From an uncultured Gammaproteobacteria bacterium (lineage in GTDB: Bacteria; Pseudomonadota; Gammaproteobacteria; Natronospirales; JAIVGZ01): a stretch of DNA of 64,000 bases. Location of the stretch: contig CAZKFT010000001.1 of NCBI GenBank assembly GCA_964552205.1, positions 50,705 to 114,704 of the forward strand, written 5' to 3'. The position numbers were made by a program, and so were the translations under genes. Positions 51,424 through 64,000 of the stretch are shown piece after piece (the stretch's first letter is position 1; every line of letters starts with the position of its first letter). The notes below the pieces were generated by a model that was given only the letters and a program-made list of their open reading frames with translations, was not told the DNA's origin and ran no database searches.

Positions 51424-52823
51424 CTGAAGCTGAAAAGGACGCGGCCCCCAGCCGATAGCTCGCGCTCATCGGTGATATCCGCGAATTCACCCAAGTAAGC
51501 ACGGAAGGTCTCCAAGCCATAGTCTACGAAGATATCCTCACGTGACTGGAGCATCTGCCTAACCATAATGTCGCTCTTCGGGACAAATTCGATAATCCCA
51601 CTGCGTGCAAGGCTTGTAATCCACTGGACGGCTTCTCGCAATGGAATGTTCTGTCCGATGGTCATATGGTGGATGAGCGCGAGAGCAAATATCGCATCGG
51701 GGCGTCCACGCTGGGATAAATCCTTGCGCTCGCTCAACCGCCAACCCAGGCTGGGGCTTGGATCGACACAGTTCATGACCAGAGGCAGCATGCCGGGATA
51801 CCTCTGCCTGGTCTGTTGGTATGCATATTCAAGCGCGTCAAGGTCGCTATCCAGGACTGCTGCGAATGATGCGCCAGCATCCAGAGCGGCAATGGAAAAA
51901 TCGCCCGAGTTTCCACCCAGGTCCCAAACGGACGTCACGCCTTCGAGCTGTACGAAGTTCGCGACGAACTGCCGCTTCGAGTTCCTAGTGTCATCGGAGT
52001 AACTGTTCACCGATGCGTACTGTTGCCAATAGGTCCCTTGCTTTCGAGCAGACTCCAAGCTTGCTATCAACCGATGCATCTCCGTGAGCAATACTCTATA
52101 TCGGCCTCTTGCCAGTTCCGGCGTACCGCTAACCGTGACAGAATCCGATGAGGTCACCCGCTGCGACTTGGCTTGCAGGGTGATATGCATGATGCCACTC
52201 AAGGTGAGCCACCTGCGCCAAGCCGGTAATAGCGCTGTGGCAGTCGCCAAGTCGATACCGTCAATGGAACCCCTCAGGAATGGCTGGAACGGGATGCCGC
52301 TCCAAGCCTCGAGCAAGAGTGGCACTAGGAACAGTCTGGTGAACTGGTTGTACCCCGCCCACGGTTCTCCCTCCCGGTACGGCCGGAGCGAGAGAATGTC
52401 GACGTGGATTGGTCTACCGTTATTGAACTGCATGTTATAAGGAGTCGCATCCGACAGCACGAAGCCTCGGTCCAGTGCCACCGTCTGGAGCTCTAGATGC
52501 TTGAGCGCTGCGTCCTTGAGCTGAGTGAACGTCCACTCGTAGGGGTATGTCACCAACTGAAGGCGGGGATGTTCGAGGACAACTGCCGGTGTCTCCCCAC
52601 GTGGCCCGCACAGGAGTCTGCGCAGGTCGTTGTCGATATCCACCCGCGTCGTCGGGATAAGCAATCCGCGGCCAATCAGTTCATCGAGCAGCCCGCAGTT
52701 CTCTAACGCAATGAAGCTTTCGCTCGCGGTCGAGTTGACCGTCCTAAGGACTCGTTGATCAAGATGGAAAACGTAGCCGGATGGGTCTCGGAAGGAGCCT
52801 GGGTCGCGGGACACGGTCGTCAA
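51414..52823 (-). CDS. class I SAM-dependent methyltransferase with N-terminal accessory domain
   Basis: The C-terminal half has motif I (VWDLGGNSGDFS) and a post-I acidic residue (VLDSD). The ~250-aa N-terminal domain starts GSFRDPSGYVF. It overlaps the downstream gene by 10 nt. Confidence 0.65.
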   Translation of the reverse strand: MTTVSRDPGSFRDPSGYVFHLDQRVLRTVNSTASESFIALENCGLLDELIGRGLLIPTTRVDIDNDLRRLLCGPRGETPAVVLEHPRLQLVTYPYEWTFTQLKDAALKHLELQTVALDRGFVLSDATPYNMQFNNGRPIHVDILSLRPYREGEPWAGYNQFTRLFLVPLLLEAWSGIPFQPFLRGSIDGIDLATATALLPAWRRWLTLSGIMHITLQAKSQRVTSSDSVTVSGTPELARGRYRVLLTEMHRLIASLESARKQGTYWQQYASVNSYSDDTRNSKRQFVANFVQLEGVTSVWDLGGNSGDFSIAALDAGASFAAVLDSDLDALEYAYQQTRQRYPGMLPLVMNCVDPSPSLGWRLSERKDLSQRGRPDAIFALALIHHMTIGQNIPLREAVQWITSLARSGIIEFVPKSDIMVRQMLQSREDIFVDYGLETFRAYLGEFADITDERELSAGGRVLFSFRCN

Positions 52824-53138: not shown

Positions 53139-54263
53139 ATGAAGGCACTAGTTTATGGTGTGATAGTAGTCGGTGTGACCGTTGCAGGGCCGGTTGTGGC
53201 CGAAACCTATCAGTCCACCCACCACTCCTTCCGGACAGCCACCCTACTTGAAGGGCTTGAGCATCCGTGGAGTATCGCTTTTCTTCCGGATGGTGGTTGG
53301 CTAATCACCGAACGACCCGGGCGGTTGCGGTTTGTCCGTGATGGGCAACTGCTTGACCACCCAGTATCAGGGGTGCCCCCGGTTCATGCGGAGGGTCAAG
53401 GTGGTTTGCTTGATGTGGTCCTCCACCCCAGATTTTCCGACAACGGATTGGTTTACCTGAGTTACTCCAAGCGGTGTACGGAGTCAGGAAACACCACGGC
53501 AGTGGGCCGGGGCGTATGGCGTGATGGCGCATTGCACGGGTTCGAGGAACTCTATGAAGCGGATGCCTGTGCTCCGCGGGGACGCCATCATGGATCGCGC
53601 ATCGTATTCGACAATGACGGTTACATGTTCGTCACGGTCGGTGACCGGGGCGTTCAGGACCGCGCCCAGGAGCTTTCGGACAATATCGGTGTTGTACTTC
53701 GCCTGAACGATGACGGCAGTATTCCGAAGGATAATCCATTTGTCGGGAACCCCGAGGTCCATGATGCCAACTGGTCCGTCGGACACCGGAATGCACAGGG
53801 CATTGCGGTACACCCGGAGACTGGGGATATCTGGTCACACGAACATGGCCCTCGCGGCGGAGATGAGTTGAATCTGGTGCGTCGAGGACGGAACTATGGA
53901 TGGCCGGTTGCGACATTCGGAATCGAGTACAACGGCCGCACCATAAGTGAAATCACACACCAGCAGGCAGGAATGGAGCCGCCGGTAAAGCAGTGGACCC
54001 CTTCCATTGCTCCAAGTGGGCTCGCCATTTACGTGGGCGATGCATTTCCGACTTGGCGGAATGATTTTTTCGTTGGTGCACTTGCCCACCAGCAGGTTGT
54101 ACGTATCCGCTTTGATGGTCACGTCGAAATCGAAGAGGAGAAGTTGCTGGACCGCACGCATGGGAGGATCCGCGATGTGCGGGTTGGGCCCGACGGATTG
54201 ATTTATGTCCTGACGGATGATCGCAACGGCCGCTTGATTCGCTTGGAACCAATTGACAGATAG
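53139..54263 (+). CDS. PQQ-dependent soluble sugar (glucose/sorbosone) dehydrogenase, YliI-like
   Basis: It has a signal peptide and beta-propeller motifs (LEHPWSIAFLPDG, GHRNAQGIAVHP, EHGPRGGDELN, RDVRVGPDG). GGAG lies 9 nt upstream of the ATG at 53139. Confidence 0.8.
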   Translation: MKALVYGVIVVGVTVAGPVVAETYQSTHHSFRTATLLEGLEHPWSIAFLPDGGWLITERPGRLRFVRDGQLLDHPVSGVPPVHAEGQGGLLDVVLHPRFSDNGLVYLSYSKRCTESGNTTAVGRGVWRDGALHGFEELYEADACAPRGRHHGSRIVFDNDGYMFVTVGDRGVQDRAQELSDNIGVVLRLNDDGSIPKDNPFVGNPEVHDANWSVGHRNAQGIAVHPETGDIWSHEHGPRGGDELNLVRRGRNYGWPVATFGIEYNGRTISEITHQQAGMEPPVKQWTPSIAPSGLAIYVGDAFPTWRNDFFVGALAHQQVVRIRFDGHVEIEEEKLLDRTHGRIRDVRVGPDGLIYVLTDDRNGRLIRLEPIDR

Positions 54264-55563
54264 AATCGTGGGCGCGAGTGATGCAGGCCAGGAGAAGCTG
54301 GTACGCCAGTTGGGGGTCTGGGGCATCTGGCTGTTGGCGGTCAACAGCATGGTTGGCGCTGGCATTTTCGGCGTACCGGCGGGTGCTGCGGCACTGCTTG
54401 GGCCGTGGAGCCCTTTGGTATTCGTGGGCTGCGGTTTGTTGCTCGGCGCGGTCATCTTGTGCTTCGCGGAGTTGGCAAGTTATTTCCGCAGTACCGGTGG
54501 TCCCATTCTGTACATGCAGTCCGCGTTCGGGCCCTTGGCTGGGTTCCAGACCGGTTGGGCGTTCTACGTTGCGCGCGTGACCGCGTTCGCGGCCAACCTG
54601 AACCTGTTGGTCGCCTCTATCGCGTTTTTCTGGGAAGGCGCTACCGGCGGTGTGGAGCGCGTGCTGCTCATGGCTGTCATTGTCGGCGCGTTGGCTTGGG
54701 TCAATGTGATCGGTGTCCGCGAGGCCATGCGGTCAATCGGTGTACTGACGGTTCTGAAGTTCTTGCCTCTCATCTTGCTGGTAGTGTTCGGGATTACACG
54801 TATCGACGGTGAGGCGCTGCCACTCGCAAGCACGCCATTCCCTGCCGCAATGGATATCGGCACTGCAGCCTTGTTGGTGATCTATGCGTTTGTAGGCTGG
54901 GAGGCAGCAGTGGTGCCTGCCGGGGAAACCCGCAACCCGTCGCGTGATGTTCCACGGGCGTTGTTCTGGGCGCTCGGGCTGGTCACACTCCTATATGTGG
55001 CGGTGCAGACCGTTGCAGTTGCCGTGTTGCCGGACCTTGCCACCTCCGAGCGTGCATTGGTCGAGGTAGGGGCAGTGTTGTTTGGGCCTGTGGGCGCCAT
55101 ACTTCTGACCGCCGGTATCGTCGTTTCTGTCGGCGGGAACATCGCGGGGACGATGTTCACTGCACCGCGCATCACCTACTCGATGGCGCGAGAGGGCGGC
55201 TTGCCGCGCTGGTTCTCGGAGGTTCACCCTCATCACCGGACGCCGCGCAACTCAGTGGTATTTCTGGCCGTGCTGGTCTTTGTGCTTGCTGTCTATGGTT
55301 CCTTCATCTGGCTTGCTGCCATGAGCGCACTGGTACGGGTACTCATCTACATGGGCTGCATCGCGGCCATGCCGAGATTGAGGAAGCGCCATGGGTTCCA
55401 GACGGACGCCTTCCGAACTCCCGGTGGCTGGTCCATACCAGTGGGGGCATTCCTGGTCTGCGGCCTCTTGCTGACCCAAGTGAGCGCCCAGTCTGTGATG
55501 GTGACTTCCGTGTTTCTGCTCGCAGGTGCGGTGCTCTATTGGCTGGTACGTCAACGGGCATGA
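54253..55563 (+). CDS. APC superfamily amino acid permease
   Basis: It has about 12 TM helices and the N-terminal NSMVGAGIFGVP motif typical of APC transporters. The start is uncertain (TTG 54253 or GTG 54268). Confidence 0.8.
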   Translation: MTDRIVGASDAGQEKLVRQLGVWGIWLLAVNSMVGAGIFGVPAGAAALLGPWSPLVFVGCGLLLGAVILCFAELASYFRSTGGPILYMQSAFGPLAGFQTGWAFYVARVTAFAANLNLLVASIAFFWEGATGGVERVLLMAVIVGALAWVNVIGVREAMRSIGVLTVLKFLPLILLVVFGITRIDGEALPLASTPFPAAMDIGTAALLVIYAFVGWEAAVVPAGETRNPSRDVPRALFWALGLVTLLYVAVQTVAVAVLPDLATSERALVEVGAVLFGPVGAILLTAGIVVSVGGNIAGTMFTAPRITYSMAREGGLPRWFSEVHPHHRTPRNSVVFLAVLVFVLAVYGSFIWLAAMSALVRVLIYMGCIAAMPRLRKRHGFQTDAFRTPGGWSIPVGAFLVCGLLLTQVSAQSVMVTSVFLLAGAVLYWLVRQRA

Positions 55564-56711
55564 CCAGATGGGCGCTGCCCCTCGCAGTTGCGTTGGCACT
55601 GTGCGGGTGTGAATCACGACCTGCGGCTGACACCCCGGAGATATCAATGGAGTTGGGAGAAGTTTCGGGCTCTCATATGACTCTGGCTTACCTGTCTTCC
55701 ACCCCCATTGAGACTTTGCGATTTCACGAGACAGGCGGGTATTTCAGGGAGCGCAGATGGGAGGTTCTGACTGCAGGGTATGTCATTGCGCGTGACGGGG
55801 CTGCCCAGCTTGTGCAAGTAGACGACGGTGCGGAAGCTCAGCTAGCGGTGGAGGTGAGAGTCAACCTGGAAGCCGATTCACACCCGCGCAGGTATGACCA
55901 TGCTGTACGTTTCACCAACGGCTGGACTGCGATCTATTCGGGGTATCTTGATGCCGTGGGTATGGTGGCCAGCAAACCAACCTACATCGTGCTCGGACTC
56001 GCAGATTGGAATGAGGGCGGCGGCATCCGTTACCTGGTCGATCCGGCGCTACCGGAGTGGATGAGCTATTCCACCATGCGGCACCTCCCTAGCATTCTTG
56101 AAGTGTACCGCGAGCGCTTCGAGCTCGAGCTGGGGGTTCCGGTGCAGGTGTTGATAAGTTTTCATCCGCACTCCGATGTTACGGAACTAAGGGGTGCGGC
56201 ACTCCCTGGGCAGATCCACGTCGGGGTGCATGGAACGGAGTGGCAAGAAGATTCCCCTTGGGCTGAGCGGCGCTTGCATCAATTGATTGCCCATGAAGCA
56301 GCGCACCTGTGGAACGCAGGGCTTGTGCGCTATGCCGAAGGTACCTCGCCATCATTGTACGAAGGCGGTGCCGAGGCGCTGGGTATACGTGCCTTGTTCA
56401 CCCTTGGGCTGGTTGACGATGCGATGATGTTGGCGAGCGCAGACGAGGTCGCTGAGCGTTGCCTCGCTGGGACCGTACGCCGCGACTATGCCTGCGGACA
56501 CGACCATGCAAACCAGATTGAAAGGCAATCACTGGCCCAGGGTGGACCGGATCTCTTCAGCTTGTGGGGTCAGCTATTGCGCGACGCGCAGTCCGGTGAC
56601 GGACATTACGACGAGCACGCCTGGGAGGCCGTAGTGGCCTCCGCAGGCGCGGGCATCAGTCCTTGTCGTGGTGATACAGGTGCACATCGCGCTGTGGGAA
56701 CGGGATGCTGA
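55560..56711 (+). CDS. putative lipoprotein with gluzincin zinc-peptidase motif (HEXXH-X18-E)
   Basis: It has a lipobox (LALCGC) after the ATG at 55560, which overlaps the permease stop as ATGA. HEAAH (56292-56306) is followed 18 residues later by E (LYEGG), the M1-type spacing. I recognise no other family signature. Confidence 0.55.
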   Translation: MTRWALPLAVALALCGCESRPAADTPEISMELGEVSGSHMTLAYLSSTPIETLRFHETGGYFRERRWEVLTAGYVIARDGAAQLVQVDDGAEAQLAVEVRVNLEADSHPRRYDHAVRFTNGWTAIYSGYLDAVGMVASKPTYIVLGLADWNEGGGIRYLVDPALPEWMSYSTMRHLPSILEVYRERFELELGVPVQVLISFHPHSDVTELRGAALPGQIHVGVHGTEWQEDSPWAERRLHQLIAHEAAHLWNAGLVRYAEGTSPSLYEGGAEALGIRALFTLGLVDDAMMLASADEVAERCLAGTVRRDYACGHDHANQIERQSLAQGGPDLFSLWGQLLRDAQSGDGHYDEHAWEAVVASAGAGISPCRGDTGAHRAVGTGC

Positions 56712-57477
56712 TGCCTTCCTTGTCAAAACGCTTCTTGATGGCCTCCGTCAAGTCCCAATAGACCGCCCAGTAATCCTCGGTATTCACCCAGGGGCGAACA
56801 ATCCAGTCAATGCTTGAGTCACCGTGGGCATGCATCTTGATGGTTGGTGCCGGGTCTTTGAGCACGCGCTCATCCGCGTCAAGAATGCTGGCCAATGTTA
56901 CTCGCACCTTGTCGGCATCATCGTCGTAGCTGACACTCGCAGTCAGGTCCACACGGCGAGTCGGGTGGGACGAATAATTGACAATCGTGCCGCCCATCAT
57001 CTGACCATTGGGTACGACGATGCGCTTGTTGTCCGGCGACTTGAGTATGGTGGTGAAAATCTGTACTTCTTCGACCACACCCGCGACGCCTCCTCCCTCC
57101 ACGAAGTCCCCAATCCGGTAGGGCCGGAAGATGATGAGGAGCACGCCCGCCGCAAAATTGGCCAGCGAACCCTGTAATGCCAGCCCTACGGCGAGGCCAG
57201 CGGCACCGATGATCGCAATCAGTGAAGTCGTCTGCACGCCCAGCTGCCCGACGGCTGCCAGAACCACAAACACCAGCAGGATGGTGTGGACGATATTCGC
57301 TGCGAACTTAACCAGCACTGGTTCTACGCTTGCTCGTTCCATTGCCTTGATGACGAGGCCTTTCAGCGCTTTGGTAATCCATCGTCCAATCAAGAAGATT
57401 GCAATCGCGGCGACAATGTTCATTCCGAAATGCGCGCCAGATTCCGAGATTGACGCCAATAATGCATCTGTATCCAT
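56656..57477 (-). CDS. mscS: small-conductance mechanosensitive channel MscS
   Basis: It is co-linear with E. coli MscS (GAAGLAVGLALQGSLANFAAGVLLIIFRP, VQIFTTILKSPDNKRIVVPNG, ISIPFPQRDVHL). GGGAG lies 5 nt upstream of the ATG at 57477. Confidence 0.85.
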   Translation of the reverse strand: MDTDALLASISESGAHFGMNIVAAIAIFLIGRWITKALKGLVIKAMERASVEPVLVKFAANIVHTILLVFVVLAAVGQLGVQTTSLIAIIGAAGLAVGLALQGSLANFAAGVLLIIFRPYRIGDFVEGGGVAGVVEEVQIFTTILKSPDNKRIVVPNGQMMGGTIVNYSSHPTRRVDLTASVSYDDDADKVRVTLASILDADERVLKDPAPTIKMHAHGDSSIDWIVRPWVNTEDYWAVYWDLTEAIKKRFDKEGISIPFPQRDVHLYHHDKD

Positions 57478-57497
57478 GGGGCTCCCATCCTTCATGG

Positions 57498-58511
57498 TTA
57501 TTTGCCTAACATGTACATTTGCCACAGTTCCTTGTGGCTGATGCGAAGCAATGGCTCGATGGCAAGTCTGCCGACGGTGCCGATGCTAGCTTCCAGATAT
57601 TTCAATTCCTGGAACATCGACTTGACGAGATTATCCGGCTCCGGATTGAATCCCGCTTCGCGCATCATCAGCAAGCCTTTTGCTCGCAAGGAAAGCTCCG
57701 TGTAGAGGCGAAGATAGCACAACAAGTCAGCCACAATTGGTCCGTGAAATCTGTCTCGTAGTTCGTGCAGGTAACGCCCGACAGGTGAATCGGACAGCTG
57801 CCCGGAGTTGATTAATGCAAGCAACTCCGCGTCGGTATCGAAGCCGGTGCCTAGCCAAAGTCGCATCTCCTTCTCGCTCTCCTGGAAAATCATGTACATC
57901 AGTGGCGGCAGGATGACCAGGATTCCCAGGGTTGAGAAGATGGGTGAGAAGAAGAAGTGATTGAAAATCGAATGCAACACCACCGCAACAATCATGCCCG
58001 GTGTAAAGGCGGCCACCCCTGCTGAGCCACCCTTGTCGACCACCGCCAACCCCATCATGGCGAAAATTCCGGTAGCGCCACCGTGCATGATTGCGGTGCC
58101 GAAACCACGCACAATCCAGACACCAACATGCTCATCGGGAAACATACGCAGGTAATACACGTTCTCGATTACGGCGAAGCCCGCGCCAACCGCAAAGCCG
58201 AATATGGCCGCATCGATCAGGAACCCTATGCGCCGAGCCCGGATAAGGGCGACGATGACAGCCCCCTTCAGGATCTCCTCGACCAAGGGCGCGATGTACC
58301 GCGACAGCATGGTCCGATCCACATCGAACAGTGCTACCAGTTGTTGGTTAACGAGGTAGCTGAGCCCAGCCACGCAGGTCCCCGCGAGGATGACAAAAAT
58401 GACTGACTTGAGGCTGACGAGCTTGAAACTGTCCAGCGCTAACAGAGCAGCAAGAAACCCCAGAACCGGCAAAATGCCAATTGCCAGGCCGATGAGAAAA
58501 TCAGCGCTCAC
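57498..58511 (-). CDS. prsW: PrsW family intramembrane metalloprotease
   Basis: It is polytopic with the PrsW motifs (PLVEEILKG, FGFAVGAGFAVIEN, TAIMHGGATG) plus a ~120-aa cytoplasmic tail. The GTG start directly abuts the stop of the upstream gene (TGA-GTG). Confidence 0.75.
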   Translation of the reverse strand: MSADFLIGLAIGILPVLGFLAALLALDSFKLVSLKSVIFVILAGTCVAGLSYLVNQQLVALFDVDRTMLSRYIAPLVEEILKGAVIVALIRARRIGFLIDAAIFGFAVGAGFAVIENVYYLRMFPDEHVGVWIVRGFGTAIMHGGATGIFAMMGLAVVDKGGSAGVAAFTPGMIVAVVLHSIFNHFFFSPIFSTLGILVILPPLMYMIFQESEKEMRLWLGTGFDTDAELLALINSGQLSDSPVGRYLHELRDRFHGPIVADLLCYLRLYTELSLRAKGLLMMREAGFNPEPDNLVKSMFQELKYLEASIGTVGRLAIEPLLRISHKELWQMYMLGK

Positions 58512-61460
58512 TCAGAGTATCTTCAGCGAAAGCATCCACTCGCTACCGGCGCGGTCCCGCCCCTGGAAGCCGACGGCATATCCTGCCGACAAGGTCATGT
58601 CGAACCAGTGCAAAACCGTGAACCGCAAGTCAATCTGCGTGCCGACAGTCGCATAGTTGCGCCGCCGCAAGGTGCTGTCGGGCTCTGTCGACAGCAAGGA
58701 GACAAACAGGGCAGGGCGCAGCCATGTCAGGTATGCGCCCGGAGAACCGACATTCTCGAAGACCTTCGGGGGCAGGTTCAGTTCGACAGTGTGCCTTGCG
58801 AAATTGCGGCCACCCAGTTCGTTGATTTCGAATCCCGGGAACGAGAAATGCTCGCGGTAGCGTTTGATCGACCCACTGTCCACATAGTTGTTCCCGAAGC
58901 CGCCGAAATAGTGATTGGCAAACGGGTTGGTGCGGTTGCCGAAGCCGAAGCCGAGTGCGCTCCGGAACCAGATGGAGGAGTGGTCCATGGGCAGGGGAAT
59001 GCCGAAGTCATAAGCACCACGCACGGTGGCCACGGTTTCCCCGCCAGCATTGCTGAAGTTCGCGACTGCGTTCCAGGTCACACCCTTTTCATCGTCCACT
59101 GCCCCGAGGGAACGTAGGGTATGGGAGAAATGAAGCCCCGTCTGAAGCGAGATGAGACGGTCGAAAGCCGTGCCGATATTCTGGAAGTCCGGGAGCGTAT
59201 CCAGATTGGTGTAAATCGCGAAGTCAGTACGCCAGTCCAGTGTGCGCGGGCTGTCGAAGACGATGGAATGGTCATAGCCGAGCGTGGCCGCCATGCCTTT
59301 GCGGCTACGTTGAGTTGGACCAAAAATGTCGTAGAAGTCCGACCTGTTCCAGGACAATCCAGCGCGCCATGAAAGGTATTGGTACCGTAGCGCGATGTGT
59401 CCGCGCTCATTCGAGGGCAGGCCACCATCCGGCGTGTACGCAACCGTGATGCCCAGGTTGGCCAGATTGAGGGGGTCTGCGATGTTGGCGTGAACACCGA
59501 GGCCGATGGTTTCCTTGTAACCCTGTAGCACCGGATACAGGCTTTGAAGACCAAGTTCACGAAGCGGCACATAAGGACCAGACCCAGTAATCAGCTCATC
59601 CGGGTTGACGGTACTTGGTGGCGCTACCTGCCAGGTTGTCACCACCGGGTGTTTGCGAGCGAGCTCAGCGCCGAGGAAGGTTATCGCACTGACCGACTCC
59701 AGAGGCTGGGGGTCAATCAGTACAGGCGTGAAGCCCGCCCCCGTGTAGCTGTAGGCCACCAGTTGGCCATCAGCCCGCGGTATAGGTCGGACGAAGCCCG
59801 TTTCGGCATTGGTCACCGCCGCCATTTCTCCGGTCTCGATGTCGAAGCGGAAAATGTTCGATACGCCGGTGTAGTAACTGCTCCCGTACACATACTTTCC
59901 ATCCGGGGAGAACACAAAGCCTTCAGGTACGGCTTGACCGAAGTCGAACTGGCGGTGGGCCTGCACGTTGCCCGCGAGTAACTGGTCCACTTCCCACAGG
60001 CGCAGGAACTGGTCCCCGTTCACTTCGCTGATGGACGCTGACAACATCTTTCCATCGGGCGAGATATCCAAATCATAGGGCACAACCCCGTAAGGGAAGG
60101 TGTGCACTTGGTTCCAGCTGTCGTATGGGAACGGAATTCGTACAAGAGTTGCGAGACCATTCAGGTGGCGCACCCCAATTAGTGACCGATCGGCGGGGTT
60201 GAAGGCCATCTCGCCGATGCGCGCATCCTTAAGCAGTATCCGCTCGTTGCCACTGTTGACATCAAGCGCCACGATGTCGCGCATCGAGTAGTTGTCTGTG
60301 GTGTAGAAGAGGGTGCCCGATTCGCGGTCGAATGCCGTGGAGGTGACACGGTAGAGCATCGCTCCTTTCAGGTCTGCGAGCTGGCGGATGGAACCATCCT
60401 CAAGGCTCAATGCACCAATGTGGCCAATGACGCCAGGATAACGGAACGCTCCATAAAGCAGTCCTTTCTCTTCATCGAGGAAGGACCGCGACACTGAGCC
60501 GAGTGCACGGCTGGTCAGGGCGCGATACGGCGTGATTGGGTGTTCCTGTACCCGCTCAAGGTTGCGTGTCTGGAAGTCACGCTCGAAGCGAATCCAGTCC
60601 TGCCAGCCTTCCTCCAGAGGCATTCCGAATACGCGTTCGAAGTCTGCTGAGTAGTATCGGGCGCTACCTTCATCGCGGCGAAGCCAATCCACGAGTTTCT
60701 CCGGGGAGTGCTCATAGGCCAGCCAAGTCATGAATCGGGTGCCGTAGAGATAGGCGTTGACCCCGACCTGAAAGTCGATACGCGTGCCACGAGAGACAAG
60801 CCCAAGTGGGTCGAAGAACTGCGCGTCATCGCGCACCATCGCCCGGAAGACCATCTCGTCGTAGCCGCCCTGGGCGCGACCCAGACCGCCACCCATGTAG
60901 GTTTCGAAAAAGGTTGCGCTGCCTTCGAGGTACCAGCGCGGCACGATGAAACGAGGAACCGTCAGGTAGGAGTAAAGGAGGGTTTCCGGATTGCGTCCAT
61001 CGGGCATGACCTTACCACGGAAAATCCTGCGCCAGCGTGCATCCTGCTCGGTCCACATGTCCATGGTCGCCACATGCACGAGCTCGTGGTTCATCAGCGT
61101 GTACATGCGCTCAGCGGCCGGGTAGGTCTCGAAGGTGTGTGAGAGCGGGGCGATATCGAAGCGCAGGGTGTTCACGGGCTGCGCACTCGCGGAAGCATTG
61201 CCGTAATCGCTGAAGTCCTTGAGCATGACCGTGGTCCGCTCCCAGGGCTCCCAACCGAACACCCGCCGCTGCCAACGCAGGGAATTGATGAAGGTCGGGA
61301 TGGCGTACGGGACCAGGTAGTTCAGCGTGGGGTCGAAATAAACGATGCGGACATCGTCAGTTTCCGTGGAGGTCAAGAAAAGCGGGCTGCTGTCCTCGTC
61401 CCCGGAAGCGGTCGTCGAAAGCATCAACAAACCGACCATCGCAAGTGCACGACTCAACAT
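58512..61460 (-). CDS. large secreted multi-domain protein: HEXXH peptidase-like N-domain, TolB/PD40-like beta-propeller region, C-terminal Omp85-like beta-barrel
   Basis: It has a signal peptide (MLSRALAMVGLLMLSTTASG) after the ATG at 61460, with GGAGG upstream. HELVH is at 61074-61088. The middle region has repeated ...SPDGK... propeller-blade signatures. The C-terminal ~350 aa has alternating aromatic/Gly-rich strands (FGGFGNNYVD, LSAGYAVGF). Domain calls are by eye. Confidence 0.7.
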   Translation of the reverse strand: MLSRALAMVGLLMLSTTASGDEDSSPLFLTSTETDDVRIVYFDPTLNYLVPYAIPTFINSLRWQRRVFGWEPWERTTVMLKDFSDYGNASASAQPVNTLRFDIAPLSHTFETYPAAERMYTLMNHELVHVATMDMWTEQDARWRRIFRGKVMPDGRNPETLLYSYLTVPRFIVPRWYLEGSATFFETYMGGGLGRAQGGYDEMVFRAMVRDDAQFFDPLGLVSRGTRIDFQVGVNAYLYGTRFMTWLAYEHSPEKLVDWLRRDEGSARYYSADFERVFGMPLEEGWQDWIRFERDFQTRNLERVQEHPITPYRALTSRALGSVSRSFLDEEKGLLYGAFRYPGVIGHIGALSLEDGSIRQLADLKGAMLYRVTSTAFDRESGTLFYTTDNYSMRDIVALDVNSGNERILLKDARIGEMAFNPADRSLIGVRHLNGLATLVRIPFPYDSWNQVHTFPYGVVPYDLDISPDGKMLSASISEVNGDQFLRLWEVDQLLAGNVQAHRQFDFGQAVPEGFVFSPDGKYVYGSSYYTGVSNIFRFDIETGEMAAVTNAETGFVRPIPRADGQLVAYSYTGAGFTPVLIDPQPLESVSAITFLGAELARKHPVVTTWQVAPPSTVNPDELITGSGPYVPLRELGLQSLYPVLQGYKETIGLGVHANIADPLNLANLGITVAYTPDGGLPSNERGHIALRYQYLSWRAGLSWNRSDFYDIFGPTQRSRKGMAATLGYDHSIVFDSPRTLDWRTDFAIYTNLDTLPDFQNIGTAFDRLISLQTGLHFSHTLRSLGAVDDEKGVTWNAVANFSNAGGETVATVRGAYDFGIPLPMDHSSIWFRSALGFGFGNRTNPFANHYFGGFGNNYVDSGSIKRYREHFSFPGFEINELGGRNFARHTVELNLPPKVFENVGSPGAYLTWLRPALFVSLLSTEPDSTLRRRNYATVGTQIDLRFTVLHWFDMTLSAGYAVGFQGRDRAGSEWMLSLKIL

Positions 61461-61516
61461 GTCACCCCTCCCCAGTGGCATCCGACCCTGCCACGCATGG
61501 TCGCACATTCCTGGGG

Positions 61517-61557
61517 TCAAAAAGAAACCGCCGGCCCCTGGGAGGCGACCGGCGGTT
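61517..61557 (-). terminator. Rho-independent terminator after the repeat-protein gene
   Basis: A 9-bp stem AACCGCCGG/CCGGCGGTT (61526-61534 / 61549-61557) is followed on the minus strand by TCTTTTTGA. It lies 26 nt after the stop at 61583 and about 60 nt before the next ATG. Confidence 0.6.
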
Positions 61558-61582
61558 GCTTGGACTGCTTAGACGGGCTGGA

Positions 61583-63463
61583 TCAGCGCGTCTCGAAAGC
61601 CCTCATCAAGGCCTGGGCGAACTGCGGATGCTGCGCCATGGCCGCGAACGCCTGCGCATTCTGCGACAGAGCGGCGAAGGCCTGTGGGTACTGGGCAAGC
61701 ACCATGAACGCTTGTGGCTGCTGTGACAGCGCCGCGAAGGCCTGCGGATGCTGTGACATCGCTGCAAATGCCTGCGGATGCTGTGACAGCGCTGCGAAGG
61801 CCTGCGGATGCTGTGACAGCGCTGCGAAGGCCTGTGCACTCTGCGACAGCGCAGCGAAGGCCTGCGGGTGCTGCGACATGGCTGCAAACGCCTGCGGATG
61901 CTGGGACAGTGCCGCGAACGCCTGCGGATCCAGTGCCATGGCGGCAAAGGCCTGCGGGTGCTGTGCCATGGCCGCGAAGGCCTGCGGGTGTTGGGCCAGT
62001 GCTGCAAAGGCCTGTGGCTGCTGCGCCAGCGCCGCGAAGGCCTGTGGCTGCATGGCGAATGCCGCAAAGGCCTGCGGGTGCTGCGCCAAGGCCGCGAAGG
62101 CCTGCGGGTGCTGGGCCAGCGCTGCAAAGGCCTGTGGCTGCTGCGCCAGCGCCGCGAATGCCTGAGGCTGCTGCGCCATGGCCGCAAACGCCTGCGGTTG
62201 CAGTGCGAAGGCTGCGAAAGCCTGTGGGTGCTGCGCCAGGGCCGCGAAGGCCTGCGGATGTTGCGACAGTGCTGCAAAGGCCTGTGGCTGCTGCGCCAGA
62301 GCCGCGAACGCCTGCGGCTGCTGTGCCAGGGCCGCGAAGGCCTGCGGGTGCTGCGCCAGCGCCGCGAAGGCTTGCGGGTGCTGCGCCATGACCGCGACTG
62401 CCTGTACCTGTTGCGACAACGCAGCAAAGGCCTGTGCATCCTGGGCCAGTGCGGCGAATGCCTGCGGGTACTGACCTGCAGCGGCGAAGGCCTGCGGATC
62501 TTGGGCCAGTGCTGCAAACGCCTGTGGCTGCTGTGCCATCGCGGCGAAGGCCTGCGGGTACTGCGCCATCGCCTGGAAGGCCTGTGGATATTGCGCTAAA
62601 GCAGCAAACGCCTGCGGATGCTGCGACAGGGCGGCAAAGGCCTGCGGCTGCTGTGCCAAGGCCGAGAAAGCCTGCGGGTGCTGTGCCAGCGCCGCGAAGG
62701 CCTGCGGATGTTGCGCCATGGCCGCGAAGGCCTGCGGGAACTGCGCAAGGACCTCAAAAGCCTGCGGGTGCTGCGACATGGCGGCGAACGCCTGCGGGTG
62801 CTGCGCCATGGCAGCAAACGCCTGCGGGTACTGCGACATAGCCGCAAAAGCCTGTGGCTGCTGTGCCAGTGCAGAGAACGCCTGGGCATCCATCGACATG
62901 GCAGCAAACGCCTGTGGCTGCTGTGCCAAGACCTCGAAGGCCTGCGGGAATTGTGCAAGGACCTCGAACGCCTGCGGGGATTGCGCCATGGCGGCGAATG
63001 CTTGCGGATGCTGTGACATCGCTGCAAATGCCTGCGGCTGCTGCGCCAGAACTTCAAAGGCCTGCGGGAACTGTGCAAGAACCTCGAAGGCCTGCGGGAA
63101 CTGCGCCATGGCGGCGAAGGCCTGCGGGAACTGCGCCATCGCAGCGAGTGCCTGCGGGTGCTGCGCCAATGCCTGGAATCCAGGGTCTTGGGCCATCGCA
63201 CGGAATTCAGGATCGCTGACCATCCGCTCGAACAGGTCGGTCTGCATCAGCTGGGTGATGCCTTGGTCGCCAAGCGCAACATCATCAGCGCTCATTTGGG
63301 GTGCACGGTAACGCTCCGCCGGAGCGATGGTCCCCGCGACGGTCTCTTCCGCCGGCGGATAGTTGGAGCCAAAATAGGCCACTGCACCGAGAGCCACGAT
63401 GGCGCCGCCAGCGATGACCCACATCTTCGGCGTGCTAAACACGCCCCCCTTTACGTCACTCAT
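61583..63463 (-). CDS. single-pass membrane protein consisting mostly of ~53 tandem PQAF decapeptide repeats (no family recognised)
   Basis: The ATG at 63463 has AGGGGGA about 8 nt upstream. The N-terminal part has a TM helix (MWVIAGGAIVALGAVAYFG). Repeats run from residue ~84 to the C-terminus. Unit-to-unit DNA differences fall mainly on third codon positions of this frame (CCG/CCA, TTC/TTT, GCG/GCA/GCC/GCT). A terminator follows. Confidence 0.8.
   Translation of the reverse strand: MSDVKGGVFSTPKMWVIAGGAIVALGAVAYFGSNYPPAEETVAGTIAPAERYRAPQMSADDVALGDQGITQLMQTDLFERMVSDPEFRAMAQDPGFQALAQHPQALAAMAQFPQAFAAMAQFPQAFEVLAQFPQAFEVLAQQPQAFAAMSQHPQAFAAMAQSPQAFEVLAQFPQAFEVLAQQPQAFAAMSMDAQAFSALAQQPQAFAAMSQYPQAFAAMAQHPQAFAAMSQHPQAFEVLAQFPQAFAAMAQHPQAFAALAQHPQAFSALAQQPQAFAALSQHPQAFAALAQYPQAFQAMAQYPQAFAAMAQQPQAFAALAQDPQAFAAAGQYPQAFAALAQDAQAFAALSQQVQAVAVMAQHPQAFAALAQHPQAFAALAQQPQAFAALAQQPQAFAALSQHPQAFAALAQHPQAFAAFALQPQAFAAMAQQPQAFAALAQQPQAFAALAQHPQAFAALAQHPQAFAAFAMQPQAFAALAQQPQAFAALAQHPQAFAAMAQHPQAFAAMALDPQAFAALSQHPQAFAAMSQHPQAFAALSQSAQAFAALSQHPQAFAALSQHPQAFAAMSQHPQAFAALSQQPQAFMVLAQYPQAFAALSQNAQAFAAMAQHPQFAQALMRAFETR
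61605..63215 (-). repeat. tandem 30-bp repeat array (about 53 units, in-frame, coding)
   Basis: The plus-strand consensus is gccgcgaaggcctgcgggtgctgcgccagc, repeated head-to-tail without spacers. The first and last units are degenerate (DPEFRAM, DPGFQAL, HPQFAQAL). Confidence 0.9.
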
Positions 63464-63568: not shown

Positions 63569-64000
63569 TCAATCAATTGTCGGTACTGGCAAAAAATCCT
63601 CAAAAATCAATTCATTATCCCTGTACAGGCGGTAAGGGACGCGCTCGGCGGCGCCGCTCAAGAGCACCGCAAAGCGTCGTCCACCGCCAAGCTGCATGTC
63701 GAGTTGGTCACCGTTGAGCTCCAGCGTTGGAGCATCTTCTCCTGCGCCCAAAACGCCGACCACCTTCAAACTATCCGACAGCGGGACCACCAACCTGAAG
63801 GGATTTTCGGTTTCCAGATTGATCGCCATTACCAGGAAAGACTCGGTGCGCTGCAACTGCAGTGAGCCGCTTACGCCAGAACTGCCGAAATTCGACTGCC
63901 GCGTGGTGGGGCCGTGCGTTCCTTCAATGCCGGCGGCCATGGTGCCCGCCATACGGTGCCACTCACCAGGCGCATCGGATGGAGGACCCAGTATCACCCC
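63569..64000 (-). CDS. hypothetical protein, C-terminal part only (ORF runs off the window end)
   Basis: The ORF is open to position 64000, has the same orientation as the repeat gene and has high GC3. I recognise no motif. Confidence 0.4.
   Translation of the reverse strand, partial: GVILGPPSDAPGEWHRMAGTMAAGIEGTHGPTTRQSNFGSSGVSGSLQLQRTESFLVMAINLETENPFRLVVPLSDSLKVVGVLGAGEDAPTLELNGDQLDMQLGGGRRFAVLLSGAAERVPYRLYRDNELIFEDFLPVPTID

What the first reader, a model, noticed from the sequence alone, without database searches (positions are those of the whole stretch)
56656..63463. Candidate envelope module: repeat protein -> beta-barrel-tethered HEXXH/propeller protein -> PrsW intramembrane protease -> MscS
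Four co-directional minus-strand genes are packed as an operon-like string. The repeat gene is separated from the next gene only by a hairpin terminator. The stop of the 982-aa gene directly abuts the prsW GTG (TGA-GTG). prsW is followed 20 nt later by mscS with its own Shine-Dalgarno. PrsW-family proteins are known as site-1 proteases that cleave single-pass membrane anti-sigma factors (B. subtilis RsiW). Here a single-pass membrane protein of extreme low complexity is encoded next to a PrsW homologue and a predicted outer-membrane-anchored metallopeptidase. A third metallopeptidase-motif lipoprotein converges on the cluster. Inference, hypothesis 1: the repeat protein is the substrate or scaffold of a trans-envelope proteolytic or mechanosensing cascade. 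Inference, hypothesis 2: it is a multi-core polyprotein processed into many PQAF-containing peptides, analogous to multi-core RiPP precursors, although no dibasic or other obvious cleavage sites are present. No sigma factor, anti-sigma domain or transporter is visible in the window, so the output of such a system is unknown.
Basis: inference. Interest (0 to 1): 0.8.

Follow-up and report, generated by a model that had tools for sequence, protein, structure and literature searches.

The report
Conserved envelope-sensing protease module behind an ECF sigma
Three of the four flagged genes (a membrane-anchored repeat protein, a large outer-membrane-tethered zinc-peptidase and a PrsW membrane protease) form a widespread, unstudied gene module that sits behind a sigma/anti-sigma pair just beyond the window edge, and it probably switches on genes by cutting up the repeat protein.

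Summary
Comparative genomics splits the proposed four-gene module.

REP (the repeat protein), BIG (the 982-aa protein) and PrsW are a real conserved unit:
- PrsW directly follows BIG in 75 of 80 genome loci.
- In a scan seeded only on the PQAF repeat, BIG follows REP in 27 of 27 testable loci and PrsW follows BIG in 13 of 13.
- MscS and the convergent HExxH lipoprotein are local neighbours, found in 0 of 80 and 0 of 44 loci.

In a contig whose BIG is 94% identical, and in 38-41 of 41 loci with enough flank, the locus continues upstream: GAF-PP2C-HATPase, STAS, ECF sigma, anti-sigma. In most lineages the anti-sigma domain is fused to REP.

REP's conserved part is a membrane helix plus the motif GT[IV]xPAxRYRAxQ. 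The repeats vary freely between lineages.

BIG is predicted as signal peptide, gluzincin-like HExxH domain, TolB-like propeller and a barrel of about 16 strands. It has no family-level Pfam assignment.

Best reading: regulated proteolysis of the anti-sigma/REP protein by BIG and PrsW, resembling SigW-RsiW-PrsW. This mechanism is inferred. The RiPP idea is rejected.

The parts
63569..64000 (-). 3' part of an anti-sigma factor gene, cut by the window end. It encodes the C-terminal, probably periplasmic, domain. The N-terminal anti-sigma domain, the ECF sigma gene, the STAS gene and the GAF-PP2C-HATPase gene lie beyond the window.
   Evidence: Aligns along its length with the C-terminal half of the 243-aa ORF of L081, whose BIG is 94% identical to the window's. 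That ORF hits NCBIfam anti-sigma models NF052375 (E 2e-8) and NF010501 (E 2.5e-8), and Pfam DUF4880 weakly.
61583..63463 (-). REP: a single-pass membrane protein with a short cytoplasmic N-tail, a TM helix, a conserved juxtamembrane handle and about 52 x 10-aa PQAF repeats.
   Evidence: Homologues are always followed by BIG (27 of 27).
63368..63424 (-). REP transmembrane helix (residues about 14-32, MWVIAGGAIVALGAVAYFG), preceded by Lys residues and followed by an acidic stretch. This predicts N-in, C-out.
   Evidence: Read directly from the sequence. The equivalent helix is present in 46 related loci.
63296..63334 (-). Conserved juxtamembrane handle GTIAPAERYRAPQ (REP residues 44-56). It continues into ...DV.LGDQ..TQLMQT.
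   Evidence: The regex G[TS][IVLM].P[AS].R[YF] matches upstream of BIG in 46 of 52 eligible loci and in the window. A degenerate form persists at 39% BIG identity.
61622..63168 (-). Tandem array of 30-nt (10-aa) PQAF units.
   Evidence: TRF: period 30, 51.6 copies, 74% matches, 0% indels. 62% of nucleotide differences fall at third codon positions, and only 1 of 1225 unit pairs is identical in DNA.
61519..61557 (-). Conserved inverted repeat AACCGCCGG-N14-CCGGCGGTT plus a T-run. It is terminator-like.
   Evidence: CCGCCGG-N3-16-CCGGCGG lies within 260 nt upstream of BIG in 54 of 70 loci, against 2 other occurrences in 1.21 Mb, and occurs once in the 64-kb window. No Rfam family matches.
58512..61460 (-). 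BIG: a 982-aa secreted three-domain protein.
60549..61376 (-). BIG N-terminal gluzincin-like peptidase domain (residues about 29-304). HELVH lies at 61074-61088 (residues 125-129) and the WYLEGSA motif around E179.
   Evidence: H125, E126, H129 and E179 are invariant in 40 homologues and kept in 25 of 27 distant representatives. Foldseek on the domain model hits M1 aminopeptidases and M9 collagenases (E 4e-6 to 5e-4, TM 0.41-0.49). The window protein has no Pfam hit. A faint Peptidase_MA_2 hit is on record for a 34% relative.
59715..60527 (-). BIG beta-propeller (residues about 312-582).
   Evidence: AlphaFold model. Foldseek top hits are TolB (E 5e-8). PD40 scores 22.0 bits against a cutoff of 20.9.
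58518..59585 (-). BIG C-terminal beta-barrel of about 16 strands (residues about 626-981).
   Evidence: DSSP strand pattern of the model, with pLDDT mostly 80-95. Omp85_2 scores 21.8 bits, just under its cutoff of 23.1. PF19143 is precomputed on several homologues.
57498..58511 (-). PrsW-family intramembrane protease with a conserved C-terminal extension of about 130 aa.
   Evidence: PF13367 E 4e-21. The motifs EE..K (77-81), FA..EN (112-117), H143 and H180...N184 are at least 95% conserved in 60 orthologues, and the C-terminal domain is also conserved. It lies directly downstream of BIG in 75 of 80 and 13 of 13 loci.
56656..57477 (-). MscS channel gene. It is probably co-transcribed here but is NOT part of the conserved module.
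   Evidence: Family assignment. It is absent from 80 genome loci and 44 metagenome loci and present only in the near-identical L081.

Best explanation
The flagged region is the downstream half of a conserved, uncharacterised envelope-signalling locus. Its full order is GAF-PP2C-(RsbW-like HATPase), STAS antagonist, ECF sigma, anti-sigma, REP, hairpin, BIG, PrsW.

Shown here:
- The gene order and its conservation.
- The family or fold of each part.
- REP's conserved element is a TM helix plus a juxtamembrane handle, while its repeats are interchangeable between lineages.
- The anti-sigma domain is usually fused to REP. In the window's lineage it is a separate gene.

Inferred mechanism:
1. REP, or the anti-sigma-REP fusion, sits in the inner membrane.
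2. Its long repeat region extends across the periplasm.
3. BIG is anchored in the outer membrane by its barrel and presents a propeller-gated zinc peptidase to the periplasm.
4. BIG engages the repeat region and trims it.
5. PrsW cuts near the conserved handle.
6. Together these cuts license intramembrane and cytoplasmic degradation of the anti-sigma moiety and release the ECF sigma, as PrsW, RasP and ClpXP do for RsiW and SigW.
7. The cytoplasmic GAF-PP2C-kinase/STAS partner switch supplies a second input.

MscS and the HExxH lipoprotein are unrelated neighbours.
For: Synteny starting from BIG:
- PrsW lies directly downstream in 75 of 80 genome loci. Three of the five exceptions are contig ends.
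- In 41 loci with at least 5 kb of upstream flank, GAF-PP2C-HATPase is present in 41, STAS in 41, ECF sigma in 38 and PrsW in 40.
- Nothing further up- or downstream is conserved.

Synteny starting from REP: 44 loci found by the PQAF DNA pattern alone. BIG follows in 27 of 27 testable loci and PrsW in 13 of 13.

Independent gene calls with precomputed Pfam hits show the same order in Myxococcales and Wenzhouxiangellaceae MAGs.

Domain identities.

The anti-sigma N-terminus is fused to TM, handle and repeats in most loci. Split forms like the window's occur in L059, L075, L081, L083 and L088.

BIG: AlphaFold pLDDT 82, pTM 0.81. Propeller matches TolB. N-domain matches M1 and M9 gluzincins. HExxH and E179 are invariant.

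PrsW catalytic motifs are conserved.

The triad of TM protein, BIG and PrsW persists at 34-39% BIG identity with different regulators.

Precedents from papers:
- RsiW is cleaved by PrsW, then RasP, then ClpXP (PMC5358783).
- The extracytoplasmic disordered region of the anti-sigma factor RsgI works even when scrambled or swapped (PMC9732909).
Against: - No experiment exists, and no direct evidence shows that either protease cuts REP or the anti-sigma factor.
- In the window's lineage the anti-sigma factor is a separate protein with its own TM and periplasmic domain. REP cleavage alone would therefore not free the sigma. REP may instead be a co-sensor or adaptor.
- Four loci (L005, L011, L067, L071) have REP, BIG, PrsW and the partner switch but no ECF sigma or anti-sigma domain. 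The sigma may not be the only output.
- The peptidase-domain model is of modest confidence (pLDDT 62), and the zinc-site geometry was not checked.
- Omp85 membership is just below threshold.
- A hairpin, and in many lineages a promoter-like element, separates REP from BIG. Co-transcription is not assured.
- Some distant BIG homologues lack PrsW.
Confidence: 0.6

Rival explanations
1. Mechanical tether or ruler rather than protease substrate. REP's repeat region bridges the inner membrane to BIG in the outer membrane, or probes the peptidoglycan mesh. Loss of that engagement, or force on it, exposes the handle to PrsW. BIG mainly binds REP through its propeller, and its peptidase has an editing or housekeeping role.
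For: The repeats vary freely in sequence and unit length while the handle is conserved. This is the pattern reported for the RsgI disordered region, where scrambled sequences still signal and mechanotransduction is proposed (PMC9732909). TolB-like propellers are protein-binding modules. Two distant BIG representatives have lost HExxH but keep the full architecture.
Against: HExxH and the downstream Glu are invariant in 40 close homologues and kept in 25 of 27 distant ones. That argues catalysis matters. The PQAF class looks helical and its peptide unit is under purifying selection, so it is not simply disordered.
Confidence: 0.2
2. BIG is an Omp85/TpsB-like translocon that exports the REP repeat region to the cell surface. 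This would make a surface-exposed sensor or adhesin tethered to the inner membrane.
For: A barrel of about 16 strands with a near-threshold Omp85_2 match. Low-complexity repeat proteins are typical surface passengers. REP and BIG are always adjacent.
Against: No POTRA domains: a peptidase and a propeller occupy their place. REP is anchored by an N-terminal TM helix and has no TPS-like secretion domain. This reading does not explain the conserved PrsW.
Confidence: 0.1
3. One reading: REP is a multi-core precursor processed into many PQAF peptides, like a RiPP.
For: About 52 near-identical 10-residue units next to two proteases.
Against: Orthologous positions hold unrelated repeats such as SGVQ, ASN, GRSVD, ATPS and NKDVQGNVTTY. 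The protein has an N-terminal TM anchor and is commonly fused to an anti-sigma domain. No maturase, transporter or immunity gene is conserved in the neighbourhood. There are no cleavage sites between units.
Confidence: 0.02
4. One reading: a combined proteolytic and mechanosensitive-channel cascade.
For: mscS starts 20 nt after prsW with its own Shine-Dalgarno. The arrangement is kept in the contig whose BIG is 94% identical.
Against: MscS is absent from all 80 genome loci and all 44 metagenome loci that carry the module.
Confidence: 0.03

Closest known systems
Bacillus subtilis SigW-RsiW regulated proteolysis (PrsW site-1, RasP site-2, ClpXP)
   Same: It has an ECF sigma, a single-pass anti-sigma factor and a PrsW-family membrane protease (PF13367; catalytic motifs conserved). 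Among specific NCBIfam sigma models, SigW ranks in the top three for the locus sigma. The cascade logic is taken from PMC5358783.
   Different: Here prsW is genetically linked to the system. This PrsW carries a conserved extra domain of about 130 aa and fails the PrsW equivalog cutoff (28 against 225 bits). The anti-sigma ectodomain is a variable repeat array with a conserved handle. An outer-membrane peptidase-propeller-barrel protein and a GAF-PP2C-kinase/STAS switch are added. The host is diderm.
RsgI/SigI sensing through an extracytoplasmic intrinsically disordered region (PMC9732909)
   Same: It is an anti-sigma factor whose extracytoplasmic segment is sequence-agnostic. Swapped or scrambled sequences still work in RsgI. 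Here, unrelated repeat types occupy the same position in orthologues.
   Different: RsgI uses autoproteolytic SEAL-domain site-1 cleavage and has no PrsW or outer-membrane partner. The PQAF class here looks helical and is under purifying selection.
FecI-FecR-FecA type cell-surface signalling (from general knowledge, not tested here)
   Same: It combines an outer-membrane barrel protein, an inner-membrane anti-sigma factor and an ECF sigma as a trans-envelope relay. The 243-aa anti-sigma has a weak DUF4880 (FecR N-terminal) hit.
   Different: BIG is not a TonB-dependent transducer and carries a peptidase and a propeller. No FecR periplasmic domain is present.
HsbR-HsbA and CrsR-CrsA partner switches (PMC6482189)
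   Same: These are three-domain proteins, sensor-PP2C-kinase/anti-sigma, paired with a STAS antagonist.
   Different: The sensor domain here is GAF rather than a receiver. The switch is linked to an ECF sigma and envelope proteases. In one lineage the HATPase is a separate gene.
Propeller-gated peptidases and clan MA(E) gluzincins (M1 aminopeptidases, tricorn-interacting factor F3, M9 collagenases; TolB-like propellers)
   Same: The fold matches for the N-domain and the propeller, and the HExxH plus downstream Glu.
   Different: No Pfam family covers the N-domain. I saw no M1-type GxMEN exopeptidase motif upstream of HELVH by eye in the sequence. Fusion to an outer-membrane barrel is, to my knowledge, undescribed.

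Membership tests
PrsW family intramembrane protease (Pfam PF13367) | Profile match above the gathering threshold | tested here: met
   75.8 bits against a cutoff of 23.5, E 4e-21, residues 35-205.
PrsW family intramembrane protease (Pfam PF13367) | Conserved catalytic motifs: EExxK/R, FxxxE, H, HxxxN (the motif list is from general knowledge) | tested here: met
   EEILK 77-81, FAVIEN 112-117, H143 and H180..N184 are at least 95% conserved across 60 orthologues.
PrsW equivalog (NCBIfam NF033739, orthologue of B. subtilis PrsW) | Score above the equivalog cutoff | tested here: not met
   28 bits against a cutoff of 225. It is a family member, not an equivalog, and carries an extra C-terminal domain.
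PrsW-type site-1 protease of an anti-sigma factor | Cleaves a single-pass anti-sigma factor | not testable with these tools
   Only genetic linkage to anti-sigma and REP genes was shown.
ECF sigma / anti-sigma pair | Sigma70 region 2 plus region 4 ECF-type sigma encoded in the locus | tested here: met
   It is not inside the window. In L081 (BIG 94% identical), TIGR02937 scores 107.9 bits against a cutoff of 42.9, with Pfam r2 and r4_2. It is present in 38 of 41 loci.
ECF sigma / anti-sigma pair | Adjacent protein with an N-terminal anti-sigma domain | tested here: inconclusive
   NF052375 E 2e-8 but 34 bits against a cutoff of 100. Weak zf-HC2 and DUF4880 hits. The characteristic LDGE..PEE...L......C/A..F..L pattern is visible in most loci.
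Clan MA(E) gluzincin metallopeptidase | HExxH plus a downstream Glu ligand | tested here: met
   H125, E126, H129 and E179 are invariant in 40 sequences and kept in 25 of 27 distant representatives. That E179 is the zinc ligand is inferred, not measured.
Clan MA(E) gluzincin metallopeptidase | Thermolysin-like catalytic fold | tested here: inconclusive
   All top-50 Foldseek hits are M1 or M9 peptidases (E down to 4e-6, TM 0.41-0.49), but the domain model has pLDDT 62. The window protein has no Pfam hit. A faint PF13485 hit is on record for a relative.
Omp85 superfamily | C-terminal 16-strand barrel matching an Omp85 profile | tested here: inconclusive
   About 16 strands in the model. PF19143 scores 21.8 bits against a cutoff of 23.1 and is precomputed on some homologues. 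No PDB sequence match.
Omp85 superfamily | N-terminal POTRA domains | tested here: not met
   The N-terminal region is a peptidase-like domain plus a propeller. There is no POTRA hit.
TolB-like / PD40 beta-propeller | Propeller fold and PD40 repeat match | tested here: met
   Foldseek TolB E 5e-8. PD40 scores 22.0 bits against a cutoff of 20.9 on the isolated domain.
STI1/HOP DP-type helical repeats | Profile match of the repeat region | tested here: inconclusive
   The window REP scores only 16.5 bits against a cutoff of 29.1. The relatives L075 (76 bits) and L034 (UBQLN1, E 1.7e-10) score well, but as many summed weak stretches.
MscS channel | MS_channel domains | tested here: met
   Four Pfam domains above cutoff. 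NF007662 scores 281 bits, below its subfamily cutoff of 321. It is a true MscS-family protein but not a module member.
Multi-core RiPP precursor | Leader peptide, conserved core sequence, linked maturase or transporter | tested here: not met
   It has a TM anchor instead of a leader. The core sequence is not conserved between orthologues. No maturase or transporter is conserved.

The most novel reading that the evidence does not exclude
This would be a trans-envelope 'proteolytic fuse' for diderm bacteria. The anti-sigma/REP protein sends a long, sequence-agnostic repeat filament across the periplasm into an outer-membrane-anchored, propeller-gated zinc peptidase. The state of that engagement (envelope spacing, peptidoglycan or outer-membrane integrity, or ligand load on the amphipathic PQAF repeats) sets the rate at which the filament is consumed. 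When the conserved handle is reached or exposed, PrsW fires and the ECF sigma is released. The signal is integrated with a cytoplasmic GAF-PP2C partner switch. That would be a new sensing principle and a new protein family (BIG).
Probability: 0.3. Interest if true: 0.85.

Novelty: new variant of a known kind. Interest (0 to 1): 0.72.

Why it matters
ECF sigma systems are a major form of bacterial signal transduction, but PrsW-type site-1 proteolysis has been worked out essentially only for Bacillus SigW. This locus shows a PrsW homologue hard-wired to an ECF/anti-sigma pair in many Beta- and Gammaproteobacteria, with MAG-level assignments to Myxococcota, Gemmatimonadota and other phyla.

It also brings in two unstudied components:
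- BIG is a large protein family with thousands of members and no family-level Pfam assignment. It joins a gluzincin, a propeller and an outer-membrane barrel.
- REP is an anti-sigma ectodomain made of interchangeable repeats behind a conserved handle.

Together they offer a testable route to how diderm bacteria relay outer-envelope information to the cytoplasm, and a diderm counterpart to the RsgI disordered-region sensor. A culturable carrier exists (Rhizobacter sp. Root404).

Tried and rejected
- Protein database search with the REP N-terminal 110 aa returned only 6 fragments, probably because repeat genes assemble and are called poorly. I used DNA-pattern and tblastn approaches instead.
- PDB sequence searches gave nothing useful for BIG, its barrel or PrsW.
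- Foldseek on the whole BIG model was dominated by the propeller. I re-predicted the N-domain alone, at lower confidence.
- Pfam on the isolated BIG N-domain and on the PrsW C-terminal extension gave no hits.
- PADLOC defence models gave none. Rfam on the hairpin region gave none.
- The main text of the ECF reclassification paper does not mention PrsW, STAS or SpoIIE, and its supplements are not held. I therefore could not assign the sigma to a numbered ECF group.
- A literature search for 'PrsW' alone was swamped by cardiology and polygenic-risk acronyms. More specific PrsW searches found no description of this module.
- The simple promoter and terminator scan missed the hairpin because of its loop limit, and found no sigma-70-like promoter in the window region.
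- The conserved palindrome is not universal. It occurs only 3 times in the 44 PQAF-class metagenome loci, so it is specific to some lineages.
- My crude regex for the fused anti-sigma domain under-counts fusions, so I give no exact fused-to-split ratio.

Full report
**1. Observation**

All the junctions check out:
- 25 nt after the REP stop there is a strong hairpin, AACCGCCGG/CCGGCGGTT at 61526-61557, followed by TTTCTTTTT.
- The BIG TGA abuts the prsW GTG.
- mscS starts 20 nt after the prsW TAA, behind GGATGGGAG.

PrsW and MscS are clear family members. REP has one hydrophobic helix near its N-terminus. About 52 copies of a 10-residue unit, A[LM][AS]Q[HQ]PQAFAA, follow without a single indel.

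The array is old, and the peptide rather than the DNA is what is conserved. 62% of nucleotide differences between units fall at third codon positions. The invariant Q-A-F is spelled with all synonymous codons. Only 1 of 1225 unit pairs is identical in DNA.

**2. Forward synteny test, starting from BIG**

BIG belongs to a very large family annotated everywhere as 'hypothetical'. It gave more than 6000 hits, at 60-65% identity across Beta- and Gammaproteobacteria and MAGs assigned to Myxococcota and Gemmatimonadota.

I fetched 80 genome loci around homologues and searched them with the window's proteins:
- PrsW is immediately downstream of BIG in 75 of 80 loci. Three of the five exceptions are contig ends. 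The other two, both Steroidobacteraceae, have room but no PrsW.
- A REP-like hit lies immediately upstream in at least 40 loci.
- MscS and the convergent HExxH lipoprotein occur in none.

**3. What lies beyond the window edge**

L081 is a metagenome contig whose BIG is 94% identical to the window's. It continues upstream of REP with a 243-aa ORF, an ECF sigma (182 aa), a STAS protein (97 aa) and a 567-aa GAF-SpoIIE(PP2C)-HATPase_c_2 protein. Pfam and NCBIfam confirm these domains.

The window's truncated ORF at 63569-64000 is the C-terminal part of the 243-aa protein. That protein hits anti-sigma models at E 2e-8.

In 41 loci with at least 5 kb of upstream flank, the counts are as follows:

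| Component | Loci with it (of 41) |
|---|---|
| GAF-PP2C-HATPase | 41 |
| STAS | 41 |
| ECF sigma | 38 |
| PrsW | 40 (the one miss is a contig end) |

Nothing further out on either side is conserved. Independent gene calls with precomputed Pfam hits show the same order in a Myxococcales MAG and a Wenzhouxiangellaceae MAG.

**4. Anatomy of REP**

In most loci the gene upstream of BIG begins with a typical anti-sigma N-terminus (LMHAVLDGEATPEEARELERxLAADPAAR..F..L). It continues through a linker and a TM helix, and ends in low-complexity tandem repeats.

The repeats are unrelated between lineages. Examples are GTARGLND, QLGQQG, SGVQ, ASN, SPNQS, GRSVD, ATPS and PQAF-type 10-mers.

What is conserved is the TM helix and a juxtamembrane handle, GT[IV]xPAxRYRAxQ...DVKLGD. 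The handle is found in 46 of 52 eligible loci and at REP residues 44-56 in the window.

In the window's lineage, and in L059, L075, L083 and L088, the anti-sigma domain is a separate gene of about 250 aa with its own TM and C-terminal domain. There REP starts directly at the TM helix.

Four loci have REP, BIG, PrsW and the partner switch but no ECF sigma or anti-sigma domain.

PQAF-type repeats recur in Gammaproteobacteria, Usitatibacter, Burkholderiales and Myxococcota loci. In relatives they score against the STI1/HOP-DP and ubiquilin repeat models. The window's own match is weak.

**5. Converse synteny test, starting from REP**

I scanned metagenome contigs with a degenerate DNA pattern encoding PQAFAA[LM][AS]QxPQAF. 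This returned 44 loci, and all are REP homologues:
- BIG follows directly in 27 of 27 loci with at least 700 nt of room.
- PrsW follows BIG in 13 of 13 loci with at least 500 nt of room.
- MscS and the HExxH lipoprotein appear in 0 of 44.

**6. BIG**

AlphaFold on a 40-sequence alignment gave pLDDT 82 and pTM 0.81. The model has four parts:
- a signal peptide;
- a mixed alpha/beta N-domain (about 29-304);
- a beta-propeller (about 312-582);
- a C-terminal barrel of about 16 strands (about 626-981).

Foldseek on the whole model is led by TolB (E 5e-8).

The N-domain modelled alone has lower confidence (pLDDT 62). All of its top 50 hits are clan MA(E) peptidases: the M1 aminopeptidases IRAP, ERAP1/2, LTA4H and F3, and M9 collagenases, with E values down to 4e-6.

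H125, E126, H129 and E179 (in WYLEGSA) are invariant in 40 homologues. They are kept in 25 of 27 full-length cluster representatives down to about 29% identity.

No Pfam model covers the N-domain. A faint Peptidase_MA_2 hit is on record for a 34% relative. The barrel scores just under the Omp85_2 cutoff, and there are no POTRA domains.

With an even-stranded barrel, the N-terminal domains should face the periplasm. This is an inference.

**7. PrsW**

The family's catalytic motifs are at least 95% conserved in 60 orthologues: EE..K, FA..EN, H143 and H180...N184. A C-terminal extension of about 130 aa with no Pfam match is also conserved. The protein is a PrsW-family member but not an equivalog of B. 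subtilis PrsW (28 against 225 bits).

**8. The hairpin**

A hairpin plus T-run lies between the REP/anti-sigma gene and BIG in 47 of 49 loci. Unusually for a terminator, the stem sequence itself is conserved:
- CCGCCGG-N3-16-CCGGCGG occurs within 260 nt upstream of BIG in 54 of 70 loci.
- It occurs only twice elsewhere in 1.21 Mb of locus DNA.
- It occurs once in the 64-kb window, at this position.

In most of those loci the T-run merges into TTGC(A/T)T. About 17 nt later comes TAT(G/C)CT, present in 47 of 61 loci against a background of 0.4%. This looks like a sigma-70-type promoter for BIG-prsW.

The window and L081 keep the hairpin but not the -10-like box. The palindrome is rare in the PQAF-class metagenome loci. 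No Rfam family matches.

REP and BIG are therefore probably separate or attenuated transcription units, even though they are always adjacent.

**9. Deeper relatives**

An exhaustive search found 2812 50%-identity clusters at E<=1e-3 and 636 at E<=1e-30. The three-domain length of about 980 aa is kept down to 26% identity.

| Locus | BIG identity | Context |
|---|---|---|
| L088 (low GC) | 39% | ECF sigma, 257-aa anti-sigma, TM protein with a degenerate handle and NKDVQGNVTTY repeats, BIG, PrsW. This is the same split architecture as the window. |
| L085 | 34% | A histidine kinase replaces the sigma module, but TM protein, BIG and PrsW remain. |
| L086 | 33% | A secreted repeat protein precedes BIG; no PrsW. 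|
| L084 | 26% | BIG stands alone and has lost HExxH. |

The oldest link seems to be a TM or repeat protein with BIG. PrsW is usually attached, and the regulators are interchangeable.

**10. Mechanism (inferred)**

The known logic is that PrsW, then RasP, then ClpXP destroy RsiW to free SigW (PMC5358783). By analogy I propose four steps:
1. REP, or the anti-sigma-REP fusion, is the sensor and substrate. Its repeat region extends across the periplasm.
2. BIG is anchored in the outer membrane. It admits unstructured or extended polypeptide through its propeller to the zinc site, as propeller-gated peptidases do, and trims the repeats.
3. PrsW cuts near the conserved handle. The remnant is cleared by an S2P and by cytoplasmic proteases encoded elsewhere, which releases the ECF sigma.
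4. The GAF-PP2C-kinase/STAS pair is architecturally like HsbR-HsbA and CrsR-CrsA (PMC6482189). It would add a cytoplasmic input, possibly by sequestering the same sigma.

The order of the BIG and PrsW steps is open. In the window's split form, REP may act as a co-sensor for the separate anti-sigma factor.

The free interchange of repeat sequences parallels the RsgI disordered region, which works when scrambled (PMC9732909).

**11. Rivals**

- REP as a mechanical tether or ruler, with BIG as its docking partner.
- BIG as a TpsB-like exporter of REP.
- The RiPP idea, which fails on non-conserved cores, the membrane anchoring and the absence of a maturase.
- The MscS-inclusive module, which fails on synteny.

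**12. Novelty and limits**

I found no paper describing this combination, no defence-system match and no Pfam family for the BIG N-domain. The system is best filed as a new variant of ECF/anti-sigma regulated proteolysis that contains a new protein family.

Limits:
- Everything mechanistic is inferred from synteny, motifs and predicted folds.
- Taxon labels come from MAG records.
- The 80 genome loci are the best-scoring ones, not a random sample.
- The peptidase-domain model is only moderately confident.
- The barrel was not fold-searched on its own.
- The sigma, anti-sigma N-domain and partner-switch genes are inferred for this organism from a related contig (BIG 94% identical), not read in the window.

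Noticed in passing
window 61519-61557 (- strand); L001-L080 just upstream of the BIG homologue: The terminator-like hairpin has a conserved stem SEQUENCE, CCGCCGG-N3-16-CCGGCGG. It is present in 54 of 70 loci, against 2 other occurrences in 1.21 Mb. In many loci it is followed by a sigma-70-like TTGC(A/T)T-N16-18-TAT(G/C)CT. It could be a protein-bound operator or attenuator rather than a plain terminator. It is rare in the PQAF-class metagenome loci (3 occurrences in 44 loci).
   Followed up: partly
L004, L006, L010, L013, L016, L026-L028, L031, L058, L076, L079 and others, immediately upstream of the GAF-PP2C gene (outside the window): A conserved motif GCTCTGTTACATTCTG, with variants CTGCTACATT and CTGGTACATT, sits just before the GAF-PP2C-HATPase gene in at least 13 of 39 loci. 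It resembles an extended -10 (TGnTACATT) and may be the locus promoter.
   Followed up: no
L005, L011, L067, L071: These are variants of the locus with GAF-PP2C-HATPase, STAS, REP (TM, handle and repeats), BIG and PrsW but no ECF sigma and no anti-sigma domain. The partner switch, or a sigma encoded elsewhere, may be the output there.
   Followed up: partly
L083 2566-4298 (Wenzhouxiangellaceae MAG): The GAF-SpoIIE phosphatase and the HATPase_c_2 kinase/anti-sigma are separate genes here, giving a classical RsbU/RsbW/RsbV-like triad. The PQAF REP gene is split into two ORFs (220 and 322 aa), probably by a frameshift or an assembly error in the repeats.
   Followed up: no
L085 1896-8533: A BIG relative at 34% identity keeps a TM protein upstream and PrsW downstream, but is preceded by a HisKA-HATPase_c histidine kinase instead of the sigma/partner-switch module.
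   Followed up: no
P0192 (L084) and P0137: Two distant full-length BIG representatives have lost the HExxH motif (NYQTTQ and DRESMQ). The first also lacks a PrsW neighbour. They may be pseudo-peptidase offshoots.
   Followed up: no
window 57498-57896 (PrsW residues about 206-337): The C-terminal extension of about 130 aa on PrsW is as conserved as the catalytic core but has no Pfam match. It may couple the protease to the cytoplasmic regulators.
   Followed up: no
window 61497-63311, both strands: Many long ORFs in other frames of the repeat region, such as 61497-62165 (+) at 222 aa and 61606-62517 (-) at 303 aa, are periodicity artefacts of the 30-nt repeat, not genes.
   Followed up: yes
window 55539-56711 (+): This convergent 390-aa lipoprotein has HEAAH and only a weak Peptidase_M1 hit (E 0.11). 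Its stop overlaps the end of mscS and its start overlaps the amino-acid permease gene (54253-55563). It is kept in L081 but in none of 124 other loci.
   Followed up: partly
window 51414-52823 (-): A 469-aa ORF with no Pfam family, only a very weak PrmA methyltransferase-like stretch at E 0.2.
   Followed up: no
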